The notes: generated by a model not told the origin, from the letters alone. DNA of 64,000 nucleotides from Actinomycetota bacterium (GCA_028717265.1 JAQUOE010000001.1:16963-80962), one strand, 5' to 3'; positions 1,657 to 34,419 are shown, counted from the first letter of the stretch. A program made the numbers and translations.

Positions 1657-1658
1657 AT

Positions 1659-2471: not shown

Positions 2472-2529
2472 GGATCAGCGGCAATACCGGGCAGTCGAAA
2501 GATAGGCTAATTTATTTGGAGATTATGAT

Positions 2530-3192: not shown

Positions 3193-3290
3193 ATAATAAA
3201 GATTTTAGATTCAGATTTAATTAAAAATTAAAGATAAAAAAGTTTTTAAAATAGGTGTAAAAAGGTAAAAACAATCGAGGGTAGAATAAT

Positions 3291-4460: not shown

Positions 4461-4544
4461 AATTATTTAAAAATATCAAAAACCGGAGATAACAATCAGA
4501 AGTGTTTCCGATTTTAATTTATATAAAGGTGTGGGATTTACATT

Positions 4545-8962: not shown

Positions 8963-9868
8963 ATGCCGGATTTGGAAGAAAAAAAAGAAATTAAAGATCT
9001 GATTATAAGTATCGTAAGCTATAACAGTTTGAATTATTTAAGGGAATGCCTGGATTCCATATTGAAAAATCCTCCCGGATTGGATTATGAGATAATAGTT
9101 ATCGACAATGCCTCCGGTGACGGTACCGTGGAATCAGTAAAAAAGGATTATCCCGGAGTGACCCTGATACCCGGTAATAAGAATGTAGGATTCGCTGCGG
9201 CAAATAACAGAGCCATCGAAAAATCTGATTCAAAGTACATCGTTCTTCTTAATAGTGACTGTATGGTATATAAAAAATCTCTGGACAACCTTGTAGATTT
9301 CATGAATAAACATCCGGGTGCAGGAATAACGGGACCGAAAATAGTAAACAGTGACGGAACCATTCAGTTATCCTGCAGAAGGTTTCCTTCTCTTATGAAT
9401 GCTGCAGCTCATACCATACTGGCCGATATATTCCCCGGCAATCCTTTTTCAAAAAAATACAAACTTGCGGATATCGGCAGGGATGATCCCTCAAAAGTGG
9501 ACTGGGTTTCAGGGTCCTGTATGATAATAAGGAGAGAGGCCCTGGAGGATACCGGAACTCTTGATGAAAGATATTTTATGTATGTAGAGGACCTGGATAT
9601 TTGTTACAGAATGTGGCAGAAAAACTGGGAGGTATATTACAATCCGGAAGCCAAAATAATGCATCATATTGCAGGAAGCAGCGGGCGCGGAAAAATAAAG
9701 TCGAGTTTCAGGATGCAGAGGAGTGTGTTTTATTTTTTCTGGAAAAATTACAGGAAAGATTGGAGAATTATTTTAATACCGCTTCTGATTCTGGCGCTTG
9801 GATTCAGATTGTTTCTTTCTATCATTAAAAGTTGCTTCTCTAAGAAAAATAATATATATAAATCGTAG
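8963..9868 (+). CDS. family 2 glycosyltransferase with a C-terminal TM segment
   Basis: Shows the GT-A fold motifs VIDNASGDGT and YVEDLDICYR (DxD-like), plus a C-terminal hydrophobic helix. Confidence 0.75.
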   Translation: MPDLEEKKEIKDLIISIVSYNSLNYLRECLDSILKNPPGLDYEIIVIDNASGDGTVESVKKDYPGVTLIPGNKNVGFAAANNRAIEKSDSKYIVLLNSDCMVYKKSLDNLVDFMNKHPGAGITGPKIVNSDGTIQLSCRRFPSLMNAAAHTILADIFPGNPFSKKYKLADIGRDDPSKVDWVSGSCMIIRREALEDTGTLDERYFMYVEDLDICYRMWQKNWEVYYNPEAKIMHHIAGSSGRGKIKSSFRMQRSVFYFFWKNYRKDWRIILIPLLILALGFRLFLSIIKSCFSKKNNIYKS

Positions 9869-9991
9869 TTAAAAAGGTTGTATTGGTCCGTTTTTAAAAA
9901 TTTTAAAGAGATTAGAAAAGTTTGGTTTTTTAAATTTAGGATTTTATATTAAAATAATCACAATTAGAAAAGTGCTCCGGGAGAATAAAAT

Positions 9992-10951
9992 ATTTTAAGA
10001 ATTTTAATAACAGGTATTGCCGGATTTGCCGGCAGACATCTTACCTCTTATCTCGCTGGGAAAGATAATAACAAAATTTTGGGAACAGACCTGACTGTAA
10101 AAAATTTTAATCTGGATGATTCTACCGGCGAAATAGAATTTGAAGAAGCGGATATCACCCATAGAGAGAAAATTTTCAGTATAATCAAGAAATTCAAACC
10201 TGATCAGGTATACCATCTTGCCGCTCAAAGCTCTGTAAGTCATTCCTGGGAAGATCCGGTAGAGACCTTCAGAATCAATGTTTTCGGGGGAATAAATATT
10301 TTAGAGGGCCTAAAGATTTTTTGCCCGGAATGCAGGATTCTTATGGCATGCACTGCCGAAGAATACGGAGAAACAGATATTCCGGATAAGCCGGTAGATG
10401 AACAATTCAGGATCTTTCCCCAGAATCCATATGCCATAAGTAAATCGGCCCTGGATTTTTTATCCTCTGTTTATTATGGTGCATACAAACTTCCGGTCTT
10501 TATAAGCAGGGCATTCAATCATATCGGTCCGGGTCAGTCCGAAAGATTTGTATGTTCGGATTTCGCAAGGCAAATAGCCCTTACGGAAAGCGGCAAACAG
10601 GAACCGGAAATATGGGTCGGGAATATACAATCAGAGAGAGATTTTCTGGATGTAAGGGATGCAGTGAAAGCATACTATTTTATAATAAACAAAGGCCGCC
10701 CGGGCCAGGTTTATAACGTCTGTTCGGGAAGGAAATTGAAGATTTCGGATTTACTTGATATGCTCATATCTTTCAGTAAAAGATCGGACATTAAAGTGAA
10801 GATCGACCGGAAGAAATTAAGGGCAATCGATGTCAAATCGATGTACGGAGATAATAGTAAATTAAAAAACCATACCGGATGGATTCCCGGTTATTCCATC
10901 GAAACATCACTAAAGGATACGCTTGATTACTGGAGAGGAAAAACCGGTTAA
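9992..10951 (+). CDS. NAD-dependent epimerase/dehydratase, GDP-6-deoxy-D-mannose reductase (Rmd)-like, with a probable ATT start
   Basis: The Rossmann motif ILITGIAGFAGRHL is encoded at 9995-10040. That is upstream of the first canonical start, TTG at 10079, where the ORF track begins. There is an in-frame stop at 9986, a GGGAGA Shine-Dalgarno at 9979-9984, and ATT at 9992. Downstream motifs are HLAAQSSVSHSWEDP and YAISK (YxxxK). The resemblance to Rmd/Gmd is from memory. Confidence 0.55.
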   Translation: MLRILITGIAGFAGRHLTSYLAGKDNNKILGTDLTVKNFNLDDSTGEIEFEEADITHREKIFSIIKKFKPDQVYHLAAQSSVSHSWEDPVETFRINVFGGINILEGLKIFCPECRILMACTAEEYGETDIPDKPVDEQFRIFPQNPYAISKSALDFLSSVYYGAYKLPVFISRAFNHIGPGQSERFVCSDFARQIALTESGKQEPEIWVGNIQSERDFLDVRDAVKAYYFIINKGRPGQVYNVCSGRKLKISDLLDMLISFSKRSDIKVKIDRKKLRAIDVKSMYGDNSKLKNHTGWIPGYSIETSLKDTLDYWRGKTG

Positions 10952-10983
10952 AGAATCTATTGTTGAGATGAAAAGGAGTTAAA

Positions 10984-12099
10984 TTGAAAGCAGTAATATT
11001 AGCCGGCGGGGAGGGAACAAGATTGCGCCCGATTACCTATTTGAACCCAAAACCGATGCTTCCCCTGGTAAACAGGCCCTTTATGGAAAAATTTGTTTTA
11101 TGGATCAAATCCCATAAGATCGAAGATATAATTTTTTCCACTGGCTATCTTCAGGGGATTTTTAAAAGCTATTTTGGAGACGGAAGCAGATATAAAATGA
11201 AGTTTATCTATGTACAGGAAAAGGAACCCCTGGATACCTGCGGAGGCGTAAAGAATGTGGAGAAATATCTGGATGGTAATAGTTTCATGGTATTTAACGG
11301 TGATATTCTTTCTTCAATCGATCTGACCGAAATGGCAGCCTTTCATAAGAGAAAAAGAGCGGATATAACAATATCGCTTACCAGAGTCGAAAACCCTGAA
11401 TCTTATGGTCTGGTGCCTGTTGATAAAGAAAGCAGAGTGATGCAGTTTCTCGAGAAACCTGAACGTGGTGAAGCCACCACTGATTTGATTAATGCCGGAA
11501 TATATATCATAGAGCCAGATATTATGGGACTGGTACCAAAAGGTAAAAGGTACTCTTTCGAGAGAGATCTTTTTCCCGATGTTCTGGATAAGGGATATAA
11601 AGTTTTTGGTTATGTTTCCGATGAATACTGGCTCGATGTCGGGACACCCCGGAAATATCTAATGGCGCACTGGGATGTTTTATATAAAAAGATAAATTTT
11701 AAATTCCCTTATAAAGAAGTTATGGAAAATATATATATAGGGGAAGATACAGAGTATTCAAAAAATAATTTCGTTTCAGGGCCGGTTGTTATAGGGGAAA
11801 AGACAAGAATGGAAAGCAGCGTAAAGATAATGCCCCTTACGGTAATAGGTGATGATTGTCGTATATCCGGAGGAACAGAAATATCAGAAAGCATAATTTT
11901 TGGCAGCTGCAAAATAGGTGAAAAATGCCTGATAAAAAGGGCAATAATTTCAAATAATGTAAAAATCGATGACAATGTGATAATAGAGGACTATGCCGTT
12001 ATCGGAGATAACAGCAAAATTGGGAAAAATAATATATTGAAAAACGGCGTAAAGATTGGTATAAATTCTAACATTGCACCGGGGCAGATTTCTTTTTAA
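10984..12099 (+). CDS. sugar-1-phosphate nucleotidyltransferase (mannose-1-P guanylyltransferase-like) with a C-terminal left-handed beta-helix
   Basis: TTG start. Has GGEGTRLRPIT (the NTP_transferase G-x-G-T-R) and C-terminal hexapeptide repeats (IGDNSKIGKNNILKNGVKIG). It lies in the GDP-sugar cluster. Confidence 0.65.
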   Translation: MKAVILAGGEGTRLRPITYLNPKPMLPLVNRPFMEKFVLWIKSHKIEDIIFSTGYLQGIFKSYFGDGSRYKMKFIYVQEKEPLDTCGGVKNVEKYLDGNSFMVFNGDILSSIDLTEMAAFHKRKRADITISLTRVENPESYGLVPVDKESRVMQFLEKPERGEATTDLINAGIYIIEPDIMGLVPKGKRYSFERDLFPDVLDKGYKVFGYVSDEYWLDVGTPRKYLMAHWDVLYKKINFKFPYKEVMENIYIGEDTEYSKNNFVSGPVVIGEKTRMESSVKIMPLTVIGDDCRISGGTEISESIIFGSCKIGEKCLIKRAIISNNVKIDDNVIIEDYAVIGDNSKIGKNNILKNGVKIGINSNIAPGQISF

Positions 12100-12156
12100 A
12101 TCAAGTATCTGTCAAAAAGAATTAATTATCAAATTTTTTAGATTTAGGGGGAGATA

Positions 12157-13122
12157 ATGACCAGAGCACTGGTAACCGGAATTACCGGTCAGGATGGTTC
12201 CTACCTGGCGGAGTTTTTATTGGAGAAGAAATATGAAGTCTATGGAATGGTAAGGCGCTCATCTGTAGAGAATTTCAATAGAATAGAACATATAAGGAAC
12301 AAGCTGAAGTTTGTCCAGGCAGATCTGCTGGATCAGTTGTCCATAATAGATGCAATAAAAGAATCCTGTCCCGATGAGATATATAATCTTGGCGCCATGT
12401 CGTTTGTGCCAACATCCTGGAAGCAGCCTGTCCTGACAGGCGAGTTTACCGGATTGGGAGTGACAAGGATGCTGGAGGCGACACGGCATATGAATAAAAA
12501 TATCAAGTTCTATCAGGCATCCAGTTCTGAAATGTTCGGGAAAGTAAAAGAAGTTCCCCAGAATGAGAATACCCCTTTTTATCCCAGAAGTCCTTACGGG
12601 GTAGCAAAAGTCTATGGCCATTACATGACCGTAAACTACAGGGAAAGTTATGATATGTTTACCTGCAGTGGTATACTTTTTAACCACGAATCACCAAGAC
12701 GGGGTCTTGAATTTGTTACTAAAAAGATAACTTACGGGGCGGCTAAAATAAAACTTGGATTGACTGATAACCTGTGTCTTGGAAATCTGGACGCAAAAAG
12801 AGACTGGGGGTATGCTCTGGATTATATCGAAGCAATGTGGCTGATGCTTCAACAGGATAAACCGGAAGATTATGTCATAAGCACCGGAGAGGCACATTCT
12901 GTAAGAGATTGGGTCGAGGCTTCTTTCCGGTGTCTGGATCTTGACTGGGAGAAATTTGTAAAAATCGATAAAAGATTCATCAGGCCGGCTGATGTGGAAC
13001 TTCTGGTAGGAGATTGTTCCAAAGCCAAAGAAAAACTTGGCTGGAAGCCGAAAGTGGGCTTTGAAGAGCTGGTAAAGATAATGGTTGAATTTGATTACAA
13101 TCATTTAAAAAAACAAATGTAA
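12157..13122 (+). CDS. gmd: GDP-mannose 4,6-dehydratase
   Basis: The N-terminus [32 protein letters not shown] is nearly identical in pattern to canonical Gmd. 321 aa. Confidence 0.9.
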
Positions 13123-13151
13123 TTTTTAGCTACCGGAGGGAGTTATATCAA

Positions 13152-14597
13152 ATGAAAGAAACCGCTATAAAATTCGGAACCGATGGCTGGAGAGGTATAA
13201 TAGCTGACGAGTTTACTTTCGACGGAGTAAGAATCGTTACGCAGGGTGTCAGTAATTATCTACGTAAAAAAGTGAAAAAAGAAGCCGAACCATGCGTGGT
13301 GCTGGGATATGATACAAGATTCCTTTCCGATAAATTTGCCGGTGTCTCGGCAGAGGTATTTGCGCGCAATGGTATCAGAGTTTATTTTTCCGACAGGATT
13401 ATAACTTCACCAATCCTTTCTCATGCCGTGCTCGAAAAAAAGGCCGACCTGGGTATTATGATCACTGCCAGCCATAATCCTTATTACTATAATGGTTATA
13501 AAATCAAAGGGCCATTCGGCGGTTCCGCTACCATGGATATAATAAGTGAAGTCGAAAAAGAAGTCAGCGAAGTGTCGGAAAATGTCGAACGTTACAGGGA
13601 ATTTTTATATCCTGGAAGCAAAAAAGATGATACTGTCAAAAAAGCGGATTTTTTATCAAGTTACCGGCAAAATATCCTCGGTCAGGTAGACAGGGAGATT
13701 GTAGAAGGTTTTAATTTCGGACTGCTTCTTGAGCCCATGTATGGTGCGGCTCAGGGCATGTTTAAAGATATCCTTGAGACATTTAACCCCATGAATCTTT
13801 TTGAGATGCATTCTATTTTAAATCCGGGATTCGGAGGTATAAATCCGGAACCTATCGGAGACAATCTGGCTGAAGCCAAACGAACCCTCAGGGAGAAAAA
13901 ATACAAGATGGCAATTTGTCTGGATGGTGACGGTGACAGGATCGCGGCTCTGGGTGAGGAAGGCAATTACATAAGCTCCCATCATCTTTATGCCATAGTT
14001 TTATGGTATCTCGCCAGTATAAAAAAAATGAAAGGCAAAGTGATAAAATCAGTCAATCTATCTTCAATAGTGGATAAAATATGCGCCAGATATGATCTGG
14101 AACTTATCACTACTCCCGTGGGATTTAAATATATAGCGGAGCAAATAATAAAAGGCGGAGTCATTATGGGTGGTGAAGAAAGCGGGGGTTTATGGGCAGG
14201 AGGAAATTTGCCGGAAAGAGACGGCATGCTTATGGGCCTGAGACTTCTGGAAATTGTGTGCAGTACGGAAAAGACCATAAACCGGATTCTCGAAGAAATT
14301 TATAATGAATTCGGATATTTTGTTTTTAACAGGATCGACTATAAAATTGGTCCGGAACAAAAGGCAAATTTAAAATCTCTTCTGGAGAGAGGTATCCCCG
14401 ATATTCTTAAGAAAGCAGGTGCCGGAAAAGTCATCACTATAGATGGTTACAAATATATTATGGAGGACAATAGCTGGATAATGATCAGGCCATCCGGAAC
14501 CGAATCGGTGGTAAGGGTATATACGGAAGGTGAAAGCGATAAAAAGATAAAACATCTACAGGAGCTGGGTAAGGAAGTCATAGACAGTGTTTTTTAA
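13152..14597 (+). CDS. phosphomannomutase/phosphoglucomutase (alpha-D-phosphohexomutase)
   Basis: Contains FGTDGWRG, the TASHNP active-serine motif and the GDGDR metal-binding loop. Confidence 0.75.
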   Translation: MKETAIKFGTDGWRGIIADEFTFDGVRIVTQGVSNYLRKKVKKEAEPCVVLGYDTRFLSDKFAGVSAEVFARNGIRVYFSDRIITSPILSHAVLEKKADLGIMITASHNPYYYNGYKIKGPFGGSATMDIISEVEKEVSEVSENVERYREFLYPGSKKDDTVKKADFLSSYRQNILGQVDREIVEGFNFGLLLEPMYGAAQGMFKDILETFNPMNLFEMHSILNPGFGGINPEPIGDNLAEAKRTLREKKYKMAICLDGDGDRIAALGEEGNYISSHHLYAIVLWYLASIKKMKGKVIKSVNLSSIVDKICARYDLELITTPVGFKYIAEQIIKGGVIMGGEESGGLWAGGNLPERDGMLMGLRLLEIVCSTEKTINRILEEIYNEFGYFVFNRIDYKIGPEQKANLKSLLERGIPDILKKAGAGKVITIDGYKYIMEDNSWIMIRPSGTESVVRVYTEGESDKKIKHLQELGKEVIDSVF

Positions 14598-14655
14598 AAA
14601 ACCTGTATTTAGGGAAAATATATTTTAAATAAGATAAAAAAGAAAGGTAGCTATT

Positions 14656-15726
14656 ATGAATTCTCTGGATAATCAGGACAGAATCAAAGAGATTGATAAA
14701 AATGGAATGCTTGAAGCTGAAGAAAATTTTTATCTTCAGCTCCTGGACGCAAAAGAAATTGCCAGCAGGGCTGATTTAGACAAAATAAAAGGAAAGAAGT
14801 TCGATGGTATTGCTATCCTTGGCATGGGTGGATCCGGATTTTCCGGTGATATTATAAAAGCTCTGATAAAAGATGATATAAGTATACCTGTCGAGATAGT
14901 AAAAGGTTATAATTTGCCTTCTTTTGTAAAAAGAGGATGGTTGGTAATTTCTATGAGTTATTCCGGTAATACGGAAGAGACGATTTCTGCGACCGGTATG
15001 GCTCTGGAACGTGGATGCGATGTTTTTGTTGTTTGTTCCGGCGGTAAACTTGAAGGCATCGGGCGCAGTAATGATAAACCTGTAATAAAGATACCTTCAG
15101 GGATTCAGCCAAGAGGCGCAATTGGTTATTTATTTTTTCCCGCTTATCTCGCACTGGGTTATCTTGATATAGTAAATATACACTCCCCGGATATAGAAGA
15201 AGCCCTTGATCTGATTAAAGAGAAAGCCGGCCTTTACAGAAGGGAAATTGTCAGTGAAGACAATCCTGCAAAGAAACTGGCTTTAAAAATTTCTGATTAT
15301 TTACCCATAGTATATGGAACGGAGGGTCTGCTGGCTGCGATTGCCTACAGGTTGAAATGTGAGTTCAATGAAAATTCAAAGACCCCCTCGTGGTGGAACG
15401 AGTTTCCGGAATTAAACCATAATGAAACCGTTGGCTGGGAGAGGTTAAAAGAGACTACCGGGAAATTTATACTCCTGGTTTTTAGAGAAAAAGAAGAGAC
15501 GGTAAGAATAAAGACACGCATTGAAGTGACCCTGAGTCTTATCAGGGAAAATGTAGGTGAAATTGTAGAAATACCGGTCGAAGGTAAATCCAGGCTTGCG
15601 AAAGCTTTATCAGCTCTGTATCTGGGTGATATAACCTCCGTGTATCTGGCACTCCTGAAAGGTATCGACCCCGGCCCGGTGGAAAAAATAGAATCACTAA
15701 AACGCAAACTGGCAGAATTGAAATAA
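14656..15726 (+). CDS. bifunctional phosphoglucose/phosphomannose isomerase (SIS-domain, archaeal type)
   Basis: 356 aa with the ILGMGGSGFSGDI SIS motif. The size and context fit the PGI/PMI family next to a phosphomannomutase. Confidence 0.65.
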   Translation: MNSLDNQDRIKEIDKNGMLEAEENFYLQLLDAKEIASRADLDKIKGKKFDGIAILGMGGSGFSGDIIKALIKDDISIPVEIVKGYNLPSFVKRGWLVISMSYSGNTEETISATGMALERGCDVFVVCSGGKLEGIGRSNDKPVIKIPSGIQPRGAIGYLFFPAYLALGYLDIVNIHSPDIEEALDLIKEKAGLYRREIVSEDNPAKKLALKISDYLPIVYGTEGLLAAIAYRLKCEFNENSKTPSWWNEFPELNHNETVGWERLKETTGKFILLVFREKEETVRIKTRIEVTLSLIRENVGEIVEIPVEGKSRLAKALSALYLGDITSVYLALLKGIDPGPVEKIESLKRKLAELK

Positions 15727-15750
15727 AATGATATAGAAAGGAAAATTTTA

Positions 15751-17007
15751 ATGGATTTCGATGTAAAAGATATTAGTCTGGCAGGAGAAGGCAAGAATAA
15801 GATAGAATGGGCAGCAAAAGAAATGCCGGTACTGCAGGGAATAAAAAAGGACTTTTCAAAAAACAAACCTCTTAAAAAGCTGGTTATAGGAGCCTGTCTT
15901 CATGTTACTTCGGAAACTGCAAATCTCATGATTGCTTTAAAAGAAGGCGGAGCCGATGTGGCTCTATGCGCATCCAATCCTTTAAGCACCCAGGATGATG
16001 TAGCGGCTTCACTTGTAAAAGATTTTAAAATCAAAGTATTTGCCATAAAGGGAGAGGATAATAAGACATATTACCGGCATATAAATAGTGTCCTTGATAC
16101 CGGACCCCGCATTACGATGGATGACGGTGCAGACCTGATTTCAACCATACACAGCAAAAGAAAAGAATTGCTTAAAAGGGTTTACGGAGGAACGGAAGAG
16201 ACAACAACAGGAGTCATAAGGCTCAAGAGCATGGAAAAAAAAGGCGTGCTTTTTTATCCGATTATTGCAGTCAATGATGCTAAAACAAAACATTTCTTTG
16301 ATAACCGCTATGGAACCGGACAGAGCACAATAGACGGGATCCTGAGGGCAACCAATATCCTGCTGGCGGGTAAAAAATTTGTGGTAGCCGGTTACGGCTG
16401 GTGCGGGAGAGGAGTTGCCGCAAGGGCAAAAGGTATGGGTGCTTCTGTTGTTATACTGGAAGTGGATCCCCTTAAAGCACTGGAAGCCAAATTGGACGGA
16501 TTCGACGTGATGAATTCCAGGGAAGCGGCTAAAATAGGAGATATTTTTTTATCTGTCACGGGCAACAAAAATGTGATAGGCGAGATAATCCTGAAAAATT
16601 GCAGCGATGGGGCGATTCTGGCCAATTCCGGCCATTTCGATGCTGAAATCGACTTGAACTATCTCAGAGTAAACAGCACTTCCAAAAAGAAAGTCAGGCC
16701 ATTTGTCGAAGAATATAATATGAAGGACGGCAGAAAGTTGTATGTTCTTGCAGAGGGAAGGCTTGTGAACCTCAGTGCGGCGGAAGGTCATCCGGCAAGT
16801 GTGATGGATATGAGTTTTGCGAATCAGTCCCTGAGCGCAAAGTATATTTTTGAAAAAAGCGGCAGTCTTTCAAAAAAAGTTTATTCGGTTCCGGAAGACA
16901 TAGATAAAAATATTGCAAAACTTAAACTAAAAAACATGGGGGTTAAAATAGATTTATTGACACCCGAGCAGGAGGAATACCTTAGTTCATGGGAAATGGG
17001 GACATAA
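15751..17007 (+). CDS. ahcY: adenosylhomocysteinase (short archaeal/Thermotoga type)
   Basis: Has the ETTTGV motif and a NAD-binding [10 protein letters not shown] motif. The canonical GYGDVGKG form is recalled from memory. 418 aa. Confidence 0.85.
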
Positions 17008-18089
17008 ACCGTTATCCGGCAGTCAGCAGAGTATGCACACTCAAATGGGAAAGACAGGTTTTAAGGTTAATAGATCAGAGAAGTCTTCCTTTCAAAGAGA
17101 TGTATGTAAGCTGCAGGTCCGTGGAAAATGTGGCAGAAGCTATAAAAGATATGGTAGTAAGAGGGGCCCCTGCTATTGGAGTTGCTGCCGGTTATGGGAT
17201 TGCGCTGGCAGCTCTGCAATTTAAAGGAAAGAATAAAGAAAAATTTATCATTCATATAGATGAGAGTATAAAGTTACTATCCGGAGCAAGGCCAACAGCA
17301 ATAAATTTATTCTGGGCGCTGGACAGGATGAGAGATGTCCTTGATGAAAACAAAAATCTGGAAATTGAAAAAATCAGGGAAAAATTAATCGAGAAGGCGA
17401 TAGAAATCGAAAAGCAGGATCTCGAGATCAACCGGAAAATCGGTCATCATGGAAAGAAGCTATTCAAAGAAGTAAAAGGCAATATCAGGATCCTTACACA
17501 CTGTAATGCTGGTGCACTGGCGACGTCGGGTTACGGAACGGCGCTTGCGGTGATAAGAAGTCTAAGCGCAGAAAGTAAAGTAGCTAATGTGATAGTAGAC
17601 GAGACGAGACCATTTCTTCAGGGAGCAAGACTTACTGCCTGGGAGCTCTATCAGGAAAAAATACCCTTTTTTATCATATCGGATAATATGGCCGGATATT
17701 TTATGTCAAAAGGGGATGTCGATGCGGTACTGGTTGGCGCAGACAGAATAGCTTCAAACGGTGATACGGCAAATAAAATAGGTACCCTGAGCCTGTCGAT
17801 ACTTGCAGAGTATTACAGGATACCGTTCTATGTTGCGGCTCCGATTTCGACTATTGATATGAAAATAAAAAGTGGGGATAATATCCCTATAGAATATAGA
17901 GATAAAAGAGAAGTGAGAGAGATTCTGGGAAAGGTTATCATACCGGACTTTATGGCAGTAGAAAATCCGGCTTTCGATGTCACACCGGCTGATAAGATAA
18001 CCGCGATCATAACTGAAAATGGCGTTGTTTACCCTCCTTACAAAAAAACGTTGGCAAAATTCTTAAAGATGGATAAACAAGGAAATTGA
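16989..18089 (+). CDS. mtnA: methylthioribose-1-phosphate isomerase (eIF-2B alpha/beta/delta family)
   Basis: 366 aa showing the MtnA/eIF2B-like fold pattern ([12 protein letters not shown]..., ...[18 protein letters not shown]). It overlaps the ahcY 3' end by 19 nt. Confidence 0.75.
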
Positions 18090-18096
18090 TAACAGA

Positions 18097-19239
18097 ATGA
18101 CAGTAAATACGAAAAAAGCTATGGTACTGGCCGCAGGTCTCGGAACAAGACTCCGGCCGCTGACCGATTTGATTTCCAAGCCAATGGCTCCCATAGTCAA
18201 CAGGCCGGTAATGGAGCATATTATAAGACTTCTTGTAAAACATAACTTTACTGATATTATTTGCAATCTTCACTGGTATCCGGATGATATAAAAAATTAT
18301 TTTGGGGATGGATCAAAATGGGGAGTAAACATAATTTACTCCTATGAGGAAGAACTGCTGGGAACAGCAGGCGGTGTTAAAAATGTCGAGTATTTTTTTG
18401 GAAAAGACACATTTTTAGTTATAAGCGGCGATGCCCTTACTGATATTAATTTAACGGATGCAGTAAAATTTCATAAAAATAAAGGCGGCGTAGCAACACT
18501 TATTTTGACTGAAGTAGATGATGCATCCCAGTATGGTGTGGTTTTACTTGATGACAACAAAAGAATAATAGGATTCCAGGAGAAACCTTTAAGCGGTGAA
18601 GCGGAATCAAACCTTGCAAATAGCGGAATATATGTTTTCGAGCCGGAAATATTTAATTATTTGCCTCCCCGGGGACAATTTTGTGATTTTGGCAAAAGTT
18701 GTTTTCCGGATTTATTGAAAAAAGATGTTATATACTATGGTTACCGCCATAATCAATATTGGAACGATGTAGGAAGTCTGGACCAGTATCAACAGGGTAA
18801 TTTTGATGCACTTGAAGGTAAGGTCAGAGTCAGCATCCCCGGGAAAAAAATAAAAGAAGGGGTCTGGATGGGAAAGAACTGTAAAATTGAGGAGGGTGTA
18901 ATAATTATCCCCCCGGCTTGCCTGGGAGATAATTGTACAATAAAAAAAGATGCAAAACTTTATGGCCCTATAATTCTTGGTAACAATACAATTGTAGATG
19001 AAAGGGCAGTTTTATATAGAGGTATTAAGTGGGGCAGCGGTTATATAGGAAAAGATACTTCGCTTATTGGCGCGATCATAGGATACGATGCAAAAATAAG
19101 AGATAAAGCTTCGATTCTGGAAAAAGCGGTTATAGGTTCCGGAAGTATCATAAAGGATGGAATAAAAATCCATCCGAGTGTAAAAATCATGTCCGATAAG
19201 ATAATTGATATTGATACAGAAAACACCACAGAAGGTTAA
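18097..19239 (+). CDS. sugar-phosphate nucleotidyltransferase with a left-handed beta-helix domain, a paralogue of the 10984 gene
   Basis: Has AAGLGTRLRPLT and C-terminal hexapeptide repeats. The architecture is the same as in eIF2B gamma/epsilon and GDP-mannose pyrophosphorylase. Confidence 0.65.
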   Translation: MTVNTKKAMVLAAGLGTRLRPLTDLISKPMAPIVNRPVMEHIIRLLVKHNFTDIICNLHWYPDDIKNYFGDGSKWGVNIIYSYEEELLGTAGGVKNVEYFFGKDTFLVISGDALTDINLTDAVKFHKNKGGVATLILTEVDDASQYGVVLLDDNKRIIGFQEKPLSGEAESNLANSGIYVFEPEIFNYLPPRGQFCDFGKSCFPDLLKKDVIYYGYRHNQYWNDVGSLDQYQQGNFDALEGKVRVSIPGKKIKEGVWMGKNCKIEEGVIIIPPACLGDNCTIKKDAKLYGPIILGNNTIVDERAVLYRGIKWGSGYIGKDTSLIGAIIGYDAKIRDKASILEKAVIGSGSIIKDGIKIHPSVKIMSDKIIDIDTENTTEG

Positions 19240-19921
19240 TCAAAATTTCATAAATATTCTTAAAGATATTCTTATCCCACCTTTATGTGCCGTTTGCGGG
19301 AAGGCCGGTTCAGAATTAGTCTGTCGGCAGTGCATATCAAAAATCAATGAAATCGGTGACCTGGTATGCGATTATTGCGGCAGACCATTATCCAGGATCG
19401 ATTCCGGAAATAAAATGTGCAGTTTTTGTAAAAATGAAGATTTTAATTTTTACAGGCACAGGAGCTTTACTGTTTATGAAGGAGAAATAAAAAAAATAAT
19501 AAGGAAATATAAATACAATAAAATATACGGCCTGAAAGAAATTATTGCAGGATTCTTGGAGAGGACATATTTTATAAATTATAAACATGAGGAAATTGAT
19601 TATATGGATACGGTCCCGGGTGAGCATATGGAAATATTATGCAGATCATTATCGGGATTAATTAAAATTCCATTTGCTGGTAATATATTAAGTATAAAAA
19701 AAATAATAAAGCAGCAGGGGCTCGATTATACACAGAGGAAAAATAATATAAAGGAGGCATTTAAGGTTAAAAATTGTGTACTCAGTTATGGCAAAAATAT
19801 ACTGCTGGTGGATGACGTCTGGACCACAGGAAGTACACTGATGGAGATTTCCGGTATTTTAAAAAGAGCAGGTGCGGATAAAATTTATTTATTAACTATT
19901 GCAAGGGGAAAGGATTCATAG
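19205..19921 (+). CDS. ComF-family protein (zinc-finger plus phosphoribosyltransferase domain)
   Basis: Has N-terminal CAVCGK...CRQC and CDYCGRP...CSFC cysteine pairs and the C-terminal PRTase motif ILLVDDVWTTGSTL. The start is uncertain: ATG at 19205 overlaps the previous gene. Confidence 0.65.
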   Translation: MILIQKTPQKVNQNFINILKDILIPPLCAVCGKAGSELVCRQCISKINEIGDLVCDYCGRPLSRIDSGNKMCSFCKNEDFNFYRHRSFTVYEGEIKKIIRKYKYNKIYGLKEIIAGFLERTYFINYKHEEIDYMDTVPGEHMEILCRSLSGLIKIPFAGNILSIKKIIKQQGLDYTQRKNNIKEAFKVKNCVLSYGKNILLVDDVWTTGSTLMEISGILKRAGADKIYLLTIARGKDS

Positions 19922-20136
19922 TGCCAAAATCGAGGGGATTTGTAAAGTGGTTCAGTCCCGAGAATGGATTCGGTTTTATAGAAGCCAAATCCAGAGGAGC
20001 CGGAGAAATATTCGTAAAATATTCTTCCATAGAGTCTGATGGATTCAAAACATTAAAAAAAGGTCAGAGAGTGGAGTTCGAGTTTGAAAAAGACGAGAGA
20101 GGTGGCATAGCCAAAAAGGTTGTGGTAATAAAGTGA
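19921..20136 (+). CDS. cold-shock protein (CspA family)
   Basis: GTG start. Contains FVKWFSPENGFGFIE (the RNP1-like KGFGFI motif). 71 aa. Confidence 0.8.
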   Translation: MPKSRGFVKWFSPENGFGFIEAKSRGAGEIFVKYSSIESDGFKTLKKGQRVEFEFEKDERGGIAKKVVVIK

Positions 20137-23405: not shown

Positions 23406-24510
23406 ATGTTAGAGGATTATGATACGAAATTGGATAAATTACTGAAAAAACTCGTTTTTTTAAGGGACTGTCTTTGAAATAGATAATAAAATAAAGAGTC
23501 TTAAGGACCTTGAGAGCAGGGCTCTATCAGAAAAATTCTGGGAAGATCACGATAAAGCCCAGAAGATAATCCGGGAGATTTCGGAGCTTAAAGAAACAAT
23601 TGCTGATATTAAAAATTTAGAGGAAAAAGTAGAGGATAGCAGATTAGCATTGGAAATACTTAAAAGCGAGGAAGACGGAAGTCTTGAAAAAGAGCTGGCA
23701 GAAAATCTTACCGACATAGAGGGTTCACTTAATGGTCTGGAAGAAAAAGTAATTTTAAGCGGCAAATATGACTCCTATCCTTCGGTAATAAATATTCACC
23801 CCGGAGCGGGCGGGACAGAATCACAGGATTGGGCGGAGATGCTGTTCCGGATGTATACACGCTGGATCGATAAAAGAGGGTTTTCTTATATTGTCAATGA
23901 CTATCAGGCAGGTGAAGAGGCGGGTATAAAGAATATTACTTTTACAGTTACCGGGAGAAATGCATACGGACTTTTAAAATCGGAAAAAGGGATCCATAGA
24001 CTGGTAAGGATCTCACCCTTTGATTCTTCCAAAAGAAGGCATACTTCTTTTGCATCTGTTGACGTGATACCGTTTTTCGATAAAGATATAGATATAAAAA
24101 TTAATAAAGAAGATCTAAAAATCGAGACCTTCAAATCGAGCAGTGCAGGTGGCCAGCATGTAAATGTCACCGATTCAGCAGTGAGGATCACGCATCTTCC
24201 CACCAATATTGTGGTGCAGTGCCAGAATGAAAGATCACAGACGCTGAACAAGCAGACAGCCATACAGATTTTGAAATCAAAGCTTTTCGAGCTGGAGAGG
24301 AAGAAAAATATCGAAGAAATAGATAAAGTAAGAGGAGAAAAAAAAGAAATCGGATGGGGCAATCAAATAAGAAGTTATACTCTTCAACCTTACCAGCTGA
24401 TCAAGGACCACAGAACCGGAATCGAGATAGGAGATGTAGGTTCGGTACTGGATGGTAATATAGATATGCTTATCAGAGGTTTTCTTGAAAAAAAATTATA
24501 CAAAGCGTAA
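23406..24510 (+). CDS. prfB: peptide chain release factor 2, needing a programmed +1 frameshift at CTT TGA (23472-23477)
   Basis: Frame 0 reads MLEDYDTKLDKLLKKLVFLRDCL then TGA. The +1 frame continues as EIDNKIKSLKDLE... and carries the SPF and GGQ motifs. AAGGGA lies 5 nt upstream of the slip site. Confidence 0.85.
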
Positions 24511-27448: not shown

Positions 27449-28660
27449 ATGAAAAAGAATATCTTGATAGCGGTAATCTCGGTTATTGTTATTATTTTTG
27501 TTTTCTCCACCGGACTATGGGTAGGAATCAATTTTGATTCTCTTAAGGGAGATTTATTAAATACTGACCGAAGTGATACTTCAGCAGTTGATGATACATT
27601 CAATTTAGATGCTTTTAAAGAAGTATGGAAGCTTATTTCCGCTAATTCACTGGTAGAAAAAAGCAACAGGGCAATAGTCGAAGCAGGCCTGGAGGGTATG
27701 CTTTCGGTTCTTGATGATAGATATGCAGAATATTTCACAGCTGAAGAATATAGCAAGATAATGGAAGCCTACAGCGGCACTACAAGCGGCATAGGAGTCG
27801 TGGTAACGCTTAATGAAGAAGGGCAGGTTCTGGTAATAAGAATACTTGAGGATGCACCTGCTTATGGAGCGGGCATCATGGAAGGAGATATTATAGTCGA
27901 AGTAGATGATATAGAAATAAAAGATATGGAACTTGAAAATGTAGTGGCTATGATTAAAGGTAAAGAAGGAACCGGAGTAAGTTTGAAGATCTTCAGACCT
28001 TCCGAGGACAAAATATTGGAAACCGATGTCACCAGAGCGAGATTTTATATTCCCAATCTGATTTCCGATATTTTTGAAGGAGACATAGGCTATGTATGGT
28101 ATTACGACTTCCAGGTCAATGGGGCCACACAGCTTGATAAAGAGATTCAAAAACTGATTGATGATGGTGCCAGTGGTCTGATACTGGACCTTCGAAATAA
28201 TCCCGGCGGTACATGGGATGATGCAATCGAGGTTTGTGATTTATTTATAAACGAAGGCATAATTTCAACTATTGAGGGAAGAAACGATAATAAAGTAAGG
28301 ACCGACGAGTTTGTAGCAAGAGAAGGAAAATATACCGAGATTCCACTGGTAGTATTGATAAACAGCTTTTCAGCGAGTGCTTCCGAACTTGTTGCGGGTG
28401 CATTAAAAGATAGTGGCAGAGCCACTCTGGTTGGAGAGACAAGCTATGGCAAGGGTGTCATTCAGGGACTTTATGAGCTTTCGGACGGCTCGGGAATCAA
28501 ATTTACGACTGCAAAATATTTTTTACCTTCAGGAGCATCCGTGGAAGGGGTAGGGGTAAAACCTGATATAATGATCGAGCTAAAAGAGGATGACACCGAA
28601 GATGTTCAATTAGCCAGAGCTATCGAGGAACTTAATATTCTTATAAGTGAGATTGAATGA
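27449..28660 (+). CDS. ctpA: carboxy-terminal processing peptidase (S41)
   Basis: Has an N-terminal TM, a PDZ region and the S41 catalytic region (INSFSASASELVAGAL with Ser, ...GKGV...). 403 aa. Confidence 0.8.
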   Translation: MKKNILIAVISVIVIIFVFSTGLWVGINFDSLKGDLLNTDRSDTSAVDDTFNLDAFKEVWKLISANSLVEKSNRAIVEAGLEGMLSVLDDRYAEYFTAEEYSKIMEAYSGTTSGIGVVVTLNEEGQVLVIRILEDAPAYGAGIMEGDIIVEVDDIEIKDMELENVVAMIKGKEGTGVSLKIFRPSEDKILETDVTRARFYIPNLISDIFEGDIGYVWYYDFQVNGATQLDKEIQKLIDDGASGLILDLRNNPGGTWDDAIEVCDLFINEGIISTIEGRNDNKVRTDEFVAREGKYTEIPLVVLINSFSASASELVAGALKDSGRATLVGETSYGKGVIQGLYELSDGSGIKFTTAKYFLPSGASVEGVGVKPDIMIELKEDDTEDVQLARAIEELNILISEIE

Positions 28661-29139
28661 AAAAACCAAAAAAGAAAAATAGTTACGAAGAGAATAAAAT
28701 GATAATAGCCCTGAATAAAAAAGCATTCAGGGATTTTTTTATTTTAAACACGTATGAGGCGGGAATAGCACTGGAAGGCTGCGAAGTCAAGTCTATACGT
28801 GATCACAGAGTGAACCTGAGGGATAGTTACAGCAGAATAAGGGACAGTCAGCTATTTCTTTACAATATGCATATATCTCCATACAGTAAAAGCAGAATCG
28901 GGGATATAAATCCCACCAGGACCAGAAGACTTCTTATGCACCGGAGGGAGATCGATAAAATAGAAGGTAAGTTGACTGACAGGAGCCTGACCCTTGTTCC
29001 CTTAAGAGTATATATGATCAAAAACAGGGTCAAGATCGAACTGGCACTGGTTAAAGGCAAAGCCGGAAGAGATAAGCGGCAGGATATTCAGGAAAGAGAA
29101 CATAAGATCGAAATGAAGAGGGCTTTGAAAAAATATTGA
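28657..29139 (+). CDS. smpB: SsrA-binding protein
   Basis: Contains IALNKKAFRDFFILNTYEAGIALEGCEVKSIR, the SmpB signature. The start is either ATG at 28657, overlapping the ctpA stop, or the ATG at 28696-28699. Confidence 0.85.
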   Translation: MKKPKKKNSYEENKMIIALNKKAFRDFFILNTYEAGIALEGCEVKSIRDHRVNLRDSYSRIRDSQLFLYNMHISPYSKSRIGDINPTRTRRLLMHRREIDKIEGKLTDRSLTLVPLRVYMIKNRVKIELALVKGKAGRDKRQDIQEREHKIEMKRALKKY

Positions 29140-34211: not shown

Positions 34212-34217
34212 TTTCGG

Positions 34218-34411: not shown

Positions 34412-34419
34412 GAAATTTG

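What the first reader, a model, noticed from the sequence alone, without database searches (positions are those of the whole stretch)
15751..19239. Overlapping ahcY-mtnA pair followed by a second NT+LbH nucleotidyltransferase gives an eIF2B-like pairing
SAH hydrolase and MTR-1-P isomerase overlap by 19 nt. That suggests translational coupling and a shared SAM by-product salvage role, yet no MtnB/aldolase, MtnP or MtnK is adjacent. The MtnA family is the eIF2B alpha/beta/delta fold. The flanking gene at 18097 and its paralogue at 10984 have the nucleotidyltransferase + left-handed beta-helix architecture of eIF2B gamma/epsilon, as remembered. AhcY carries GYGWCGRG in place of the canonical GYGDVGKG dinucleotide motif. 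That is the archaeal/Thermotoga short type, which includes S-inosylhomocysteine hydrolases.
Basis: partly seen in the sequence, partly recalled or inferred. Interest (0 to 1): 0.55.

Follow-up and report, generated by a model that had tools for sequence, protein, structure and literature searches.

The report
Conserved actinobacterial ahcY–mtnA–sugar nucleotidyltransferase operon
Three ordinary metabolic genes (SAH hydrolase, methylthioribose-1-phosphate isomerase and a sugar-nucleotide synthase) sit inside a long housekeeping operon kept across deep-branching Actinomycetota; the resemblance to eIF2B is only at fold level, but the isomerase–nucleotidyltransferase pair also recurs in Nitrospinota, which remains unexplained.

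Summary
ahcY (15751-17007) and mtnA (16989-18089) overlap by 19 nt. An NT+LbH gene (18097-19239) follows 7 nt later, and a paralogue lies at 10984-12099.

- AhcY is the short archaeal type, but it carries HxTxE (H51-V-T-S-E55). That is the published SAH-preferring fingerprint, not the HxExK of S-inosylhomocysteine hydrolases.
- MtnA passes the MtnA equivalog cut-off and fails the ribose-1,5-bisphosphate isomerase one.
- The downstream NT keeps all canonical catalytic motifs. It groups with the cyanobacterial CugP-type UDP-glucose pyrophosphorylase (PDB 8x7s). Its other close relatives are NT+LbH+phosphohexomutase fusions, so it is most likely an active NDP-hexose synthase.

The string ManC–(GMD)–PMM–PGI/SIS–AhcY–MtnA–NT–ComF–HPF–SecA was found in 10 of 10 actinobacterial contexts examined (GC 36-71%). 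It is inherited synteny.

No mtnP, mtnK, mtnN, mtnB or deaminase gene lies in the 64-kb window.

One residue remains unexplained. MtnA followed directly by an NT+LbH gene, often with a 4-nt overlap, is also conserved in Nitrospinota (65 of 67 loci). No genuine MtnA–NT fusion was found. Interest is modest.

The parts
8963..9868 (+). GT2-family glycosyltransferase, upstream of the operon
   Evidence: ORF. The orthologue in L002 carries Glycos_transf_2. The window ORF itself was assigned by position and translation only.
9992..10951 (+). NAD-dependent sugar epimerase/dehydratase-like gene. The first canonical start is TTG 10079, but the GxxGxxG motif lies in frame upstream, so the start is probably ATT 9992.
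   Evidence: Pfam GDP_Man_Dehyd/Epimerase matches only from profile position 40-50. The in-frame ILITGIAGFAGRHL after the stop at 9986-9988 matches the L002 orthologue's N-terminus.
10984..12099 (+). NT+LbH paralogue 1 ('ManC1'), the more ManC/GMPP-like of the two
   Evidence: NF052502 (Rv-type Man-1-P guanylyltransferase) 318 bits, and LbH_EIF2B 68.7 bits, above Pfam's cut-off. It forms a clade separate from NT2.
12157..13122 (+). GDP-mannose 4,6-dehydratase
   Evidence: TIGR01472 439.5 bits against a cut-off of 415
13152..14597 (+). Phosphohexomutase (PMM/PGM family)
   Evidence: All four PGM_PMM domains are present
14656..15726 (+). Bifunctional phosphoglucose/phosphomannose isomerase (SIS, bact-PGI_C)
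   Evidence: NF006426 343 bits against a cut-off of 295
15751..17007 (+). AhcY, S-adenosyl-L-homocysteine hydrolase of the short archaeal type
   Evidence: TIGR00936 628 bits against a cut-off of 498. Best PDB hit 7o5l, 540 bits.
15901..15915 (+). Nucleobase fingerprint H51-V-T-S-E55 (HxTxE, SAH-preferring type)
   Evidence: Coordinates, motif rule, positional check against HLEMK of 7r37
16390..16413 (+). GYGWCGRG dinucleotide-fold motif (AhcY residues 214-221)
   Evidence: The same motif type occurs in 7o5l as GYGWCGKG.
16970..16975 (+). AGGAGG Shine-Dalgarno-like element for mtnA, inside the ahcY coding region, 13 nt before the ATG
   Evidence: Sequence read
16989..17007 (+). 19-nt overlap between ahcY and mtnA
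   Evidence: Conserved in L001, L002/L003 and L005.
16989..18089 (+). MtnA, 5-methylthioribose-1-phosphate isomerase (probably also acting on 5-deoxyribose-1-phosphate)
   Evidence: TIGR00512 446 bits against a cut-off of 279. TIGR00511 (R15P isomerase) 190 bits, below its 314 cut-off. Cys172 and Asp252 are invariant in alignment A1. Best PDB hit 1t9k, 362 bits.
18097..19239 (+). NT+LbH paralogue 2 ('NT2'), a CugP-like sugar-1-phosphate nucleotidyltransferase and predicted NDP-hexose (probably UDP-glucose) pyrophosphorylase
   Evidence: Best PDB hit 8x7s UGPase, 239.5 bits, with the next hit at 134.5. It is sister to 8x7s with 92% bootstrap. Canonical motifs G14xGTR18, K28, D112, E162-K-P164 and D224 are present. 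Close relatives are fused to PGM/PMM.
19205..19921 (+). ComF-family phosphoribosyltransferase-like gene, last gene of the tightly packed run
   Evidence: DZR_2 and Pribosyltran domains, TIGR00201
19958..19981 (+). Terminator-like hairpin plus T-run. It is the only + strand terminator-like site between genes from 10079 to 19981; the other two + strand sites (11465, 12695) lie inside coding regions.

Best explanation
The region is part of one long, tightly packed + strand operon running about 9992-19921. The organism is a low-GC, deep-branching actinobacterium close to Candidatus Hydromicrobium / Humimicrobiaceae.

The operon combines two housekeeping modules.

(1) A hexose-nucleotide module.
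- PGI/PMI and a phosphohexomutase supply mannose-1-P and glucose-1-P.
- ManC1 makes GDP-mannose.
- GMD and an epimerase/reductase modify it.
- The second NT+LbH enzyme (NT2, 18097-19239) is a catalytically intact CugP-like pyrophosphorylase. It most likely makes UDP-glucose or another NDP-hexose.

(2) A SAM by-product module.
- AhcY hydrolyses S-adenosylhomocysteine to adenosine and homocysteine.
- MtnA isomerises 5-methylthioribose-1-P, and probably 5-deoxyribose-1-P, to the ribulose-1-P form. The steps before and after it are encoded elsewhere.

The 19-nt ahcY/mtnA overlap and the 7-nt mtnA/NT2 spacer, each with a ribosome-binding site inside the preceding gene, give co-transcription and probably translational coupling.

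The gene order is inherited. The same string lies between the SIS isomerase and comF-hpf-secA in widely diverged Actinomycetota. The eIF2B resemblance reflects only that eIF2B alpha/beta/delta and gamma/epsilon descend from the same two enzyme superfamilies.

Shown: gene identities, motifs, overlaps, synteny. Inferred: substrates of NT2, coupling, single transcript.
For: AhcY: the HxTxE motif.

MtnA: catalytic Cys172 and Asp252 are invariant, and it is 53% identical to T. maritima MtnA.

NT2:
- Its best solved relative is 8x7s, 'UTP--glucose-1-phosphate uridylyltransferase'. That chain is 100% identical to a Thermostichus vulcanus protein conserved at >=83% across the cyanobacterial hits listed.
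- The NT2 clade has 96% bootstrap support and is sister to 8x7s at 92%. It is separate from ManC1 and from eukaryotic GMPPs.
- 49 of 69 NT2-like cluster representatives are 750-935-aa proteins (most about 795-850 aa); all six long ones scanned with Pfam (751-935 aa) carry NT+LbH followed by PGM/PMM domains, at 40-47% identity to NT2. This links the clade to a phosphohexomutase, and so to hexose-1-P substrates.
- All canonical NT motifs are retained.

Synteny: ManC1-PMM-SIS-AhcY-MtnA-NT2-ComF-HPF-SecA was seen in L002/L003, L004, L005, L061, L086, L087, L168, L169 and L170, with GC 36-71%.

Operon structure: the spacers measured between 10951 and 18097 are 58 nt or less, or overlaps. There is no Rfam riboswitch. 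One intergenic terminator-like hairpin follows comF.

Background: in 78 MtnA loci from other lineages, the recurrent functional neighbours are MtnP-like (7 loci) and aldolase-fusion genes (6 loci). An NT+LbH gene lies directly downstream in only 2.
Against: The MtnA->NT+LbH pair, in the same order and often with a 4-nt overlap, is also conserved in Nitrospinota. There 65 of 67 loci have it, with NT identity falling to 51%. Pure historical accident does not predict this.

In several high-GC Actinomycetota mtnA and NT2 overlap by 1-14 nt. This is the tightest junction in those operons.

NT2 is only 39-41% identical to the characterised-type UGPase and lies below every NCBIfam equivalog cut-off. 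Its nucleotide and sugar specificity is therefore a prediction.

Whether the genome encodes the enzymes that feed MtnA (MtnP, or MtnN plus MtnK) and drain it (aldolase or dehydratase) could not be checked.
Confidence: 0.68

Rival explanations
1. MtnA and the downstream NT+LbH protein form a functional two-gene module. Either they share the sugar-1-phosphate pool, with NT2 activating 5-methylthioribose-1-P or 5-deoxyribose-1-P to an NDP-pentose for a glycan while MtnA salvages the rest. Or they form a physical complex in which the NT+LbH protein partners or regulates the isomerase. [quoted passage not shown]
For: The same gene order, with translational-coupling signatures, occurs in two phyla.
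- Actinomycetota: 10 of 10 contexts, with overlaps of 1-14 nt in L086, L087 and L168 and gaps of 6-7 nt in the window and L061.
- Nitrospinota: 65 of 67 loci, mostly with an ATGA overlap.

The two NT groups are not close orthologues, at 33-37% identity. The pairing therefore looks independent or very old.

The Nitrospinota NT has lost conservation of the EKP lysine motif and of the Thr in GxGTRL. This resembles non-catalytic NT+LbH proteins.

MTR-1-P is chemically a sugar-1-phosphate.
Against: No genuine MtnA-NT fusion was found. The two candidates, P0187 and P0245, are frameshift-garbled ORFs.

The fusions that do exist for this NT clade are with a phosphohexomutase, which points to hexose-1-P.

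In Actinomycetota the unrelated neighbours comF, hpf and secA are conserved just as well. In Nitrospinota the pair sits in a yggT-divIVA-DUF167 operon. So both cases could be housekeeping super-operons.

Only 2 of 78 other MtnA loci show the pairing. Cyanobacterial mtnA loci have no cugP nearby.

Window NT2 keeps all canonical hexose-1-P NT motifs.
Confidence: 0.12
2. AhcY is an S-inosylhomocysteine hydrolase working behind a DadD/MtaD-type deaminase. That deaminase would also turn MTA and 5'-deoxyadenosine into inosine analogues, which feed MtnA after phosphorolysis. This is the archaeal/Thermotoga route.
For: AhcY is the short archaeal type. It scores 493-519 bits to the archaeal enzymes of PMC10978960, including the M. 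jannaschii SIH hydrolase 7r3a, and 423 bits to the T. maritima enzyme. It is adjacent to mtnA.
Against: The fingerprint is HxTxE, and every HxTxE(Q) enzyme tested preferred SAH. The SIH-preferring P. furiosus enzyme has HLEMK at the aligned position. The orthologues in L040 and L061 also have HVTTE. No amidohydrolase deaminase lies in the window.
Confidence: 0.06
3. NT2 is simply a second GDP-mannose pyrophosphorylase isozyme, or another NDP-hexose enzyme such as a dTDP- or ADP-glucose synthase, rather than a UDP-glucose enzyme.
For: The best NCBIfam hit is the Rv-type Man-1-P guanylyltransferase model, at 204 bits. Sources name relatives 'mannose-1-phosphate guanylyltransferase/phosphomannomutase' or 'NDP-sugar synthase'. 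The NT+LbH+PMM fusion relatives carry GG-type P-loops like GMPPs.
Against: The score is far below the 440-bit cut-off. The CugP-type protein P0387 itself scores 187.5 bits on the same model. ManC1 in the same operon is the better ManC match at 318 bits. NT2 shares the LAAGxGTR form with 8x7s, whereas ManC1 and the GMPPs have GGxGTR. The tree places NT2 with 8x7s.
Confidence: 0.14

Closest known systems
Archaeal-type S-adenosyl-L-homocysteine hydrolases with the HxTxE fingerprint (Crenarchaeota enzymes in PMC10978960; PDB 7o5l)
   Same: 418 aa, with no 40-residue insertion. It has a short C-terminus, GYGWCG(R/K)G, and HxTxE. TIGR00936 is above its cut-off, and it scores 540 bits to 7o5l.
   Different: The host is an uncultured actinobacterium, and classical Actinomycetota such as Corynebacterium and Streptomyces use the long bacterial type (PMC10978960, section 9). 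Activity is untested.
S-inosyl-L-homocysteine hydrolases (M. jannaschii MjSIHH 7r3a; P. furiosus 7r37; T. maritima 3x2e)
   Same: Same short subfamily and the same GYGWCG-type NAD motif region.
   Different: They carry HxExK. The window protein has HxTxE, so a defining feature is not met.
MtnA, 5-methylthioribose-1-phosphate isomerase (T. maritima 1t9k, B. subtilis 2yvk/2yrf)
   Same: 53% and 44% identity respectively. The catalytic Cys and Asp are present and the equivalog score is above its cut-off.
   Different: It is not next to mtnP, mtnK or an aldolase, as it is in the methionine-salvage and DHAP-shunt operons. Here it is flanked by ahcY and an NT+LbH gene.
CugP-type (non-GalU) UDP-glucose pyrophosphorylase of cyanobacteria (Maeda et al. 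2014, J Bacteriol 196:2348, cited in PMC8227023; PDB 8x7s)
   Same: NT+LbH architecture of about 380 aa. It shares the LAAGxGTR, GDAL, FQEKP and SN.xNxGIY.FEP motifs and groups as the sister clade (92% bootstrap).
   Different: Identity is only 39-41%. NT2 lacks the 9-residue insertion after the YSFE motif seen in 8x7s. Specificity is untested. That 8x7s is CugP itself is my inference from its name, origin and conservation.
NT+LbH+phosphohexomutase fusion proteins (about 820 aa; named by sources as 'mannose-1-phosphate guanylyltransferase/phosphomannomutase')
   Same: 40-47% identity across the whole of NT2, in the same broad clade.
   Different: In the window the mutase is a separate gene (13152-14597) in the same operon.
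eIF2B (alpha/beta/delta regulatory core plus gamma/epsilon catalytic subunits)
   Same: The same two superfamilies are encoded side by side: the IF-2B/MtnA fold, and a pyrophosphorylase-like domain plus left-handed beta-helix (PMC8187479, PMC4046112).
   Different: Both window proteins are far closer to the enzymes than to eIF2B subunits: 362 against 57 bits, and 240 against 48 bits. NT2 keeps its catalytic motifs and lacks any domain C-terminal to the LbH, such as the one carried by 712-residue eIF2B epsilon. There is no eIF2 in bacteria, and no evidence of a complex.
Mycobacterial sugar-nucleotide neighbourhood: manC Rv3264c, pmmA/manB Rv3257c, manA Rv3255c (PMC3229680), with sahH Rv3248c and comF-like/hpf/secA1 Rv3242c-Rv3240c (the last four recalled from memory)
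   Same: The order of functions is the same: ManC ... PMM - SIS/PMI ... SAH hydrolase ... ComF - HPF - SecA.
   Different: As I recall it, classical actinomycetes have tmk-mtrAB-lpqB between sahH and comF. These deep lineages have mtnA-NT2 there. This was not verified with the tools.

Membership tests
S-adenosylhomocysteine hydrolase (AhcY) | Full-length match to the curated equivalog model, with both the substrate and NAD domains | tested here: met
   TIGR00936 628 bits against a cut-off of 497.6. PF05221 and PF00670 both match.
S-adenosylhomocysteine hydrolase (AhcY) | HxTxE(Q) nucleobase-binding fingerprint of SAH-preferring enzymes | tested here: met
   H51-V-T53-S-E55
S-inosylhomocysteine hydrolase subgroup | HxExK fingerprint | tested here: not met
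   The window has HVTSE where 7r37 has HLEMK
S-inosylhomocysteine hydrolase subgroup | A DadD/MtaD-type SAH deaminase in the same genome | not testable with these tools
   None lies in the 64-kb window.
S-inosylhomocysteine hydrolase subgroup | Higher turnover of SIH than of SAH | not testable with these tools
   Needs an enzyme assay
MtnA (5-methylthioribose-1-phosphate isomerase) | Score above the equivalog cut-off | tested here: met
   TIGR00512 445.8 bits against 279, and NF004326 465.6 against 271
MtnA (5-methylthioribose-1-phosphate isomerase) | Catalytic Cys and Asp (Cys160 and Asp240 in B. subtilis numbering, from memory) | tested here: met
   C172 and D252 are invariant in alignment A1
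MtnA (5-methylthioribose-1-phosphate isomerase) | Pathway partners that make MTR-1-P (MtnP, or MtnN plus MtnK) and consume MTRu-1-P (MtnB or Ald2) | not testable with these tools
   Absent from the window. Genome-wide presence is unknown.
Ribose-1,5-bisphosphate isomerase | Score above the equivalog cut-off | tested here: not met
   TIGR00511 189.8 bits against 314.1
Methionine-salvage / DHAP-shunt operon | mtnA clustered with mtnP or mtnK and an aldolase or dehydratase | tested here: not met
   No such gene lies in the window. In other phyla, MtnP-like genes occur in 7 and aldolase-fusion genes in 6 of 80 MtnA loci.
CugP-type UDP-glucose pyrophosphorylase | Closest relationship to a CugP-type enzyme rather than to ManC, GMPP or RmlA | tested here: met
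   8x7s scores 239.5 bits and the next hit 134.5. Sister clade with 92% bootstrap. 8x7s is a cyanobacterial protein.
CugP-type UDP-glucose pyrophosphorylase | Specificity for UTP and glucose-1-phosphate | not testable with these tools
   Identity is only 39-41% and no curated model exists
Sugar-1-phosphate nucleotidyltransferase (catalytically active) | GxGTR(L) loop, KP(M) lysine, GD aspartate, EKP lysine, (W)xD(V/I)G aspartate | tested here: met
   G14-x-G16-T17-R18, K28, D112, E162-K163-P164 and D224
Rv3264c-type mannose-1-phosphate guanylyltransferase | Score above the NF052502 cut-off | tested here: not met
   NT2 scores 204 bits and ManC1 318 bits, against a cut-off of 440
eIF2B gamma/epsilon-like subunit | NT-like domain plus LbH domain | tested here: met
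   PF00483 plus PF00132
eIF2B gamma/epsilon-like subunit | LbH of the eIF2B type above Pfam's gathering score | tested here: not met
   PF25084 scores 38.7 bits against 54 for NT2. ManC1 scores 68.7.
eIF2B gamma/epsilon-like subunit | Closer to eIF2B subunits than to metabolic pyrophosphorylases | tested here: not met
   eIF2B epsilon 6i3m_G scores 47.9 bits and 8x7s 239.5 bits
eIF2B-like complex | Stable physical association between the IF-2B-fold protein and the NT+LbH protein | not testable with these tools
   No genuine fusion was found. Only gene adjacency is seen, in two phyla.

The most novel reading that the evidence does not exclude
MtnA and the NT+LbH protein encoded directly downstream act together. 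The pair is translationally coupled in deep Actinomycetota and, independently, in Nitrospinota. The joint function would be either a hetero-oligomer of an IF-2B-fold protein with a pyrophosphorylase-like/LbH protein, or a route that nucleotide-activates a SAM-derived pentose-1-phosphate such as 5-methylthioribose-1-P or 5-deoxyribose-1-P. The first option would be a bacterial counterpart of the subunit pairing that eukaryotes built into eIF2B.
Probability: 0.1. Interest if true: 0.72.

Novelty: new member of a known kind. Interest (0 to 1): 0.33.

Why it matters
As it stands, the result mainly corrects annotation-level expectations for an uncultured actinobacterial lineage.
- AhcY should be read as a SAH hydrolase, not a SIH hydrolase.
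- The second 'mannose-1-phosphate guanylyltransferase-like' gene is more likely a CugP-type UDP-glucose enzyme.
- The cluster is inherited synteny.

The one point of wider interest is the recurrence of a tightly coupled mtnA->NT+LbH pair in two phyla. If that pairing reflects a complex or a shared substrate, it would give a testable prokaryotic precedent for the association of the two enzyme folds that make up eIF2B. Alternatively it would reveal a new fate for SAM-derived pentose phosphates.

Tried and rejected
(1) Rosetta-stone search for MtnA-NT fusions. I searched 1.84 billion cluster representatives with a concatenated MtnA+NT2 query. Only P0245 spanned both halves. P0187 had turned up earlier. 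Both contain Arg-rich frameshift garbage. P0187 lies on a contig with fragmented AdoHcyase and SecA genes. I rejected both as assembly or indel artefacts across the overlapping stop/start.

(2) Methylthioxylose on mycobacterial lipoarabinomannan as a possible sink for an NDP-methylthiopentose. The reviews I could read confirm the sugar exists, but the biosynthesis paper (PMC5357196) is not held. This stays an idea only.

(3) Riboswitch control of ahcY. There is no Rfam hit in the region, and only 24 nt separate the PGI gene from ahcY.

(4) The promoter scan was no better than shuffles, with 34 sites against 37 expected. I did not use it.

(5) NCBIfam naming of NT2, its relatives and the Nitrospinota NT. 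All are below the cut-offs, so this was uninformative for specificity.

(6) The exact-match look-up of the window MtnA found only a 3-kb Logan contig. The genome itself could not be retrieved to look for mtnP, mtnK, mtnN, ald2, dadD or galU.

(7) The CugP primary paper (PMC4054166) and papers citing 8X7S or 7O5L were not available.

Full report
**What is there**

- ahcY runs 15751-17007 and mtnA 16989-18089, so they overlap by 19 nt.
- mtnA has no alternative in-frame start near its 5' end. An AGGAGG lies 13 nt upstream of its ATG, inside ahcY.
- A gene with a nucleotidyltransferase domain plus a left-handed beta-helix (NT+LbH) starts at 18097, 7 nt after the mtnA stop. An AAGGAA lies within the end of mtnA. 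I call this gene NT2.
- A paralogue, ManC1, lies at 10984-12099.

The wider run on the + strand reads as follows:
- an epimerase-like gene
- ManC1
- GDP-mannose 4,6-dehydratase
- a phosphohexomutase
- a bifunctional PGI/PMI (SIS) isomerase
- AhcY, MtnA, NT2 and ComF

The spacers measured between 10951 and 18097 are 58 nt or less, or overlaps. The only + strand terminator-like hairpin lying between genes is at 19958-19973, just after comF. Rfam finds no riboswitch. This looks like one long operon.

Downstream come hpf, secA, prfB, ftsEX, an M23 peptidase, ctpA, smpB and tmRNA.

**Source organism**

Close homologues of NT2 (71-92% identity) come from MAGs named Candidatus Hydromicrobium, Humimicrobiaceae or Actinomycetota. 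The window has 32-43% GC.

**AhcY**

It passes the adenosylhomocysteinase equivalog model at 628 bits against a cut-off of 498. It is the short, archaeal-type enzyme.
- Its best solved relatives are 7o5l (540 bits) and the archaeal enzymes 7r37, 7r39 and 7r3a. The T. maritima enzyme follows, and human and rat enzymes score about 318 bits.
- GYGWCGRG is present at residues 214-221. 7o5l has GYGWCGKG.

The motif that separates substrate preference is a different one. Koeppl et al. tested 18 enzymes. Those with HxExK preferred S-inosylhomocysteine, and those with HxTxE(Q) preferred SAH (PMC10978960). The window protein reads H51-V-T-S-E55. At the aligned position the P. furiosus enzyme 7r37 reads HLEMK. 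The orthologues in L040 and L061 read HVTTE.

AhcY is therefore predicted to be a SAH hydrolase.

**MtnA**

- It scores 446 bits on the MtnA equivalog (cut-off 279) and 190 bits on the ribose-1,5-bisphosphate isomerase equivalog (cut-off 314).
- It is 53% identical to T. maritima MtnA (1t9k). It keeps the invariant Cys172 and Asp252.
- eIF2B alpha scores only 57 bits.

No MtnP, MtnK, MtnN, MtnB/aldolase or amidohydrolase deaminase lies anywhere in the 64-kb window. Whether they lie elsewhere in the genome could not be tested. The only exact-match contig for the window MtnA is 3 kb long.

**NT2**

Every canonical sugar-1-phosphate nucleotidyltransferase motif is intact: G14xG16-T17-R18, K28, D112, E162-K163-P164 and D224.

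Its best solved relative, by a wide margin, is 8x7s, deposited as UTP--glucose-1-phosphate uridylyltransferase. It scores 239.5 bits, against 134.5 for the next hit, a GMPP-like protein. eIF2B epsilon scores 47.9 bits.
- 8x7s is 100% identical to a Thermostichus vulcanus protein.
- That protein is conserved at 83% identity or more across the cyanobacterial hits listed. UniRef names several of them a UGPase.
- This fits the CugP family of Maeda et al. 2014 (reference seen; the paper itself is not held).

In a neighbour-joining tree the NT2 orthologues form a clade with 96% bootstrap support. That clade is sister to 8x7s at 92%. It is apart from the ManC1 clades and from eukaryotic GMPPs.

A search of 1.84 billion cluster representatives added a second line of evidence.
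- 49 of 69 NT2-like representatives are proteins longer than 700 aa (751-935 aa).
- All six of them that I scanned with Pfam (751-935 aa) carry NT+LbH followed by PGM/PMM domains.
- They are 40-47% identical to NT2.

This is a Rosetta-stone link between the clade and a phosphohexomutase. A separate mutase gene sits in the window operon.

NCBIfam gives no assignment. NT2 scores 204 bits on the Rv-type ManC model (cut-off 440), and the CugP-type protein itself scores 187.5 bits there. ManC1 scores 318 bits on that model and has the GGxGTR form, as GMPPs do.

The most likely reading is that ManC1 makes GDP-mannose and NT2 makes UDP-glucose or another NDP-hexose.

**Synteny within Actinomycetota**

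The string ManC1-(GMD)-PMM-SIS/PGI-AhcY-MtnA-NT2-ComF-HPF-SecA-PrfB is present in every context examined. The loci split into two groups.
- Low-GC (36-38%): L002/L003, L004 and L005.
- High-GC (67-71% where measured: L061, L086, L087): L061, L086, L087, L168, L169 and L170. Relatives of the L061 protein are named Thermoleophilia by NCBI.

NT2 orthologues are 45-53% identical between the two groups. The block is therefore old and inherited.

It resembles the mycobacterial order. manC Rv3264c, pmmA Rv3257c and manA Rv3255c are confirmed in PMC3229680. sahH Rv3248c and comF-like/hpf/secA1 Rv3242c-Rv3240c come from my memory.

The 19-nt ahcY/mtnA overlap is kept only in close relatives. In the distant ones the gap is 12-115 nt. 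The mtnA/NT2 junction ranges from a 14-nt overlap to an 86-nt gap.

**Is the MtnA-NT pairing more than chance?**

I scanned one genome per species with an MtnA alignment. This gave 80 loci from many phyla. A tblastn search and neighbour clustering followed.
- One locus is a close relative of the window (L005).
- One is the high-GC actinobacterium L061.
- In the rest, the recurrent functional neighbours are an MTA-phosphorylase-like gene (7 loci) and an aldolase/dehydrogenase fusion (6 loci). UvrA occurs in 19 loci and reflects lineage synteny.
- A Chloroflexi locus (L040) has MtnA, a PfkB kinase, AhcY (62% identical, HVTTE) and MetK together. This supports a SAM-cycle logic for the ahcY-mtnA association.
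- A Nitrospinales genome (L045) has mtnA overlapping a 329-aa NT+LbH gene by 4 nt (ATGA).

A metagenome scan with the L045 NT gave 80 loci. Of the 67 with room upstream, 65 have mtnA directly upstream on the same strand, mostly with the same overlap. NT identity falls to 51% and MtnA identity to 69% across them. So the pair is stable in a second phylum.

The Nitrospinota NT is only 33-37% identical to NT2 and joins its clade weakly. Its EKP lysine motif is not conserved, with variants FLGKGIK, FVNASIK and FIGASSM. The Thr of GxGTRL varies as well.

Several points count against a functional module.
- No genuine MtnA-NT fusion exists in the libraries searched. P0187 and P0245 are frameshift-garbled ORFs.
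- Unrelated neighbours are conserved just as well in both phyla.
- Cyanobacterial mtnA loci have no cugP nearby.

I therefore treat the recurrence as unexplained. I give about 10% to a real functional or physical coupling.

**Comparison with eIF2B**

[quoted passage not shown] The gamma and epsilon subunits are pyrophosphorylase-like plus LbH (PMC4046112). The window does encode one member of each superfamily side by side.

Both are clearly enzyme-type proteins.
- NT2's LbH_EIF2B Pfam score (38.7 bits) is below the gathering score of 54.
- NT2 has no extra C-terminal domain.
- Bacteria have no eIF2.

It resembles eIF2B in fold composition only. Membership is not supported.

**Verdict**

The gene identities, the overlap and the SAM by-product theme hold. 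The SIH-hydrolase hint and the eIF2B-like function do not.
- The proteins are new members of known families in an uncultured lineage.
- Interest is modest. It is raised slightly by the two-phylum recurrence of the mtnA->NT+LbH pair.

Noticed in passing
L045 5992-8018; L088-L165 (Nitrospinota-like marine metagenome contigs): mtnA directly precedes a 329-aa NT+LbH gene, mostly with a 4-nt ATGA overlap. This holds in 65 of 67 loci that have room upstream. In this NT family the canonical EKP lysine motif and the Thr of GxGTRL are not conserved, which suggests an altered or lost catalytic site.
   Followed up: partly
P0242, P0249, P0254 and about 45 other cluster representatives: Large family of NT+LbH+PGM/PMM fusion proteins, mostly about 795-850 aa and 40-47% identical to the window NT2. 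One of them (P0322, 935 aa) carries an additional DUF5752.
   Followed up: partly
L040 6016-11677 (Chloroflexi bacterium UBA6077): MtnA, a PfkB-family kinase, an archaeal-type AhcY ([13 protein letters not shown]) and MetK are clustered. This is a compact SAM-cycle neighbourhood.
   Followed up: no
window 9986-10079: The epimerase-like gene has its Rossmann motif ILITGIAGFAGRHL in frame upstream of the first canonical start (TTG 10079). The motif directly follows a stop at 9986-9988. The gene probably starts at ATT 9992, with GGGAG 9-10 nt upstream. Otherwise it is N-terminally damaged.
   Followed up: partly
window 23407-24510: prfB (RF2) is split over two frames. A programmed +1 frameshift site CTT TGA A lies at 23472-23478, and an SD-like AGGGA lies a few nucleotides upstream.
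   Followed up: partly
window 29197-29549: tmRNA gene (Rfam 226 bits) lies directly after smpB (28657-29139).
   Followed up: no
window 34133-34831: Cluster of seven tRNA genes on the + strand. It coincides with the only dip in GC skew in the window and is followed by two - strand genes, an ECF sigma factor (by eye) and a sigma-factor regulator.
   Followed up: no
L085 1995-3842 (P0187); P0245: Apparent IF-2B + NTP_transferase 'fusion' proteins. Both are frameshift-garbled ORFs from noisy high-GC contigs. They should not be taken as Rosetta-stone evidence.
   Followed up: yes
P0353 (514 aa); P0299 (487 aa): MtnA-family proteins with N-terminal extensions. P0353 carries a response-regulator receiver domain fused to the IF-2B domain.
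   Followed up: no
L086 4947-5567; L087 4996-5619; L168-L170 equivalents: A conserved gene of about 200 aa with no Pfam hit sits between the SIS isomerase and AhcY in the high-GC Actinomycetota. It is absent from the window lineage.
   Followed up: no
window 129-5357: Tryptophan biosynthesis genes, read by eye as trpE (3' end), trpD, trpC, trpF, trpB and trpA. A DUF5050 repeat protein follows at 5496-6524 (Pfam match; lipoprotein character by eye).
   Followed up: no
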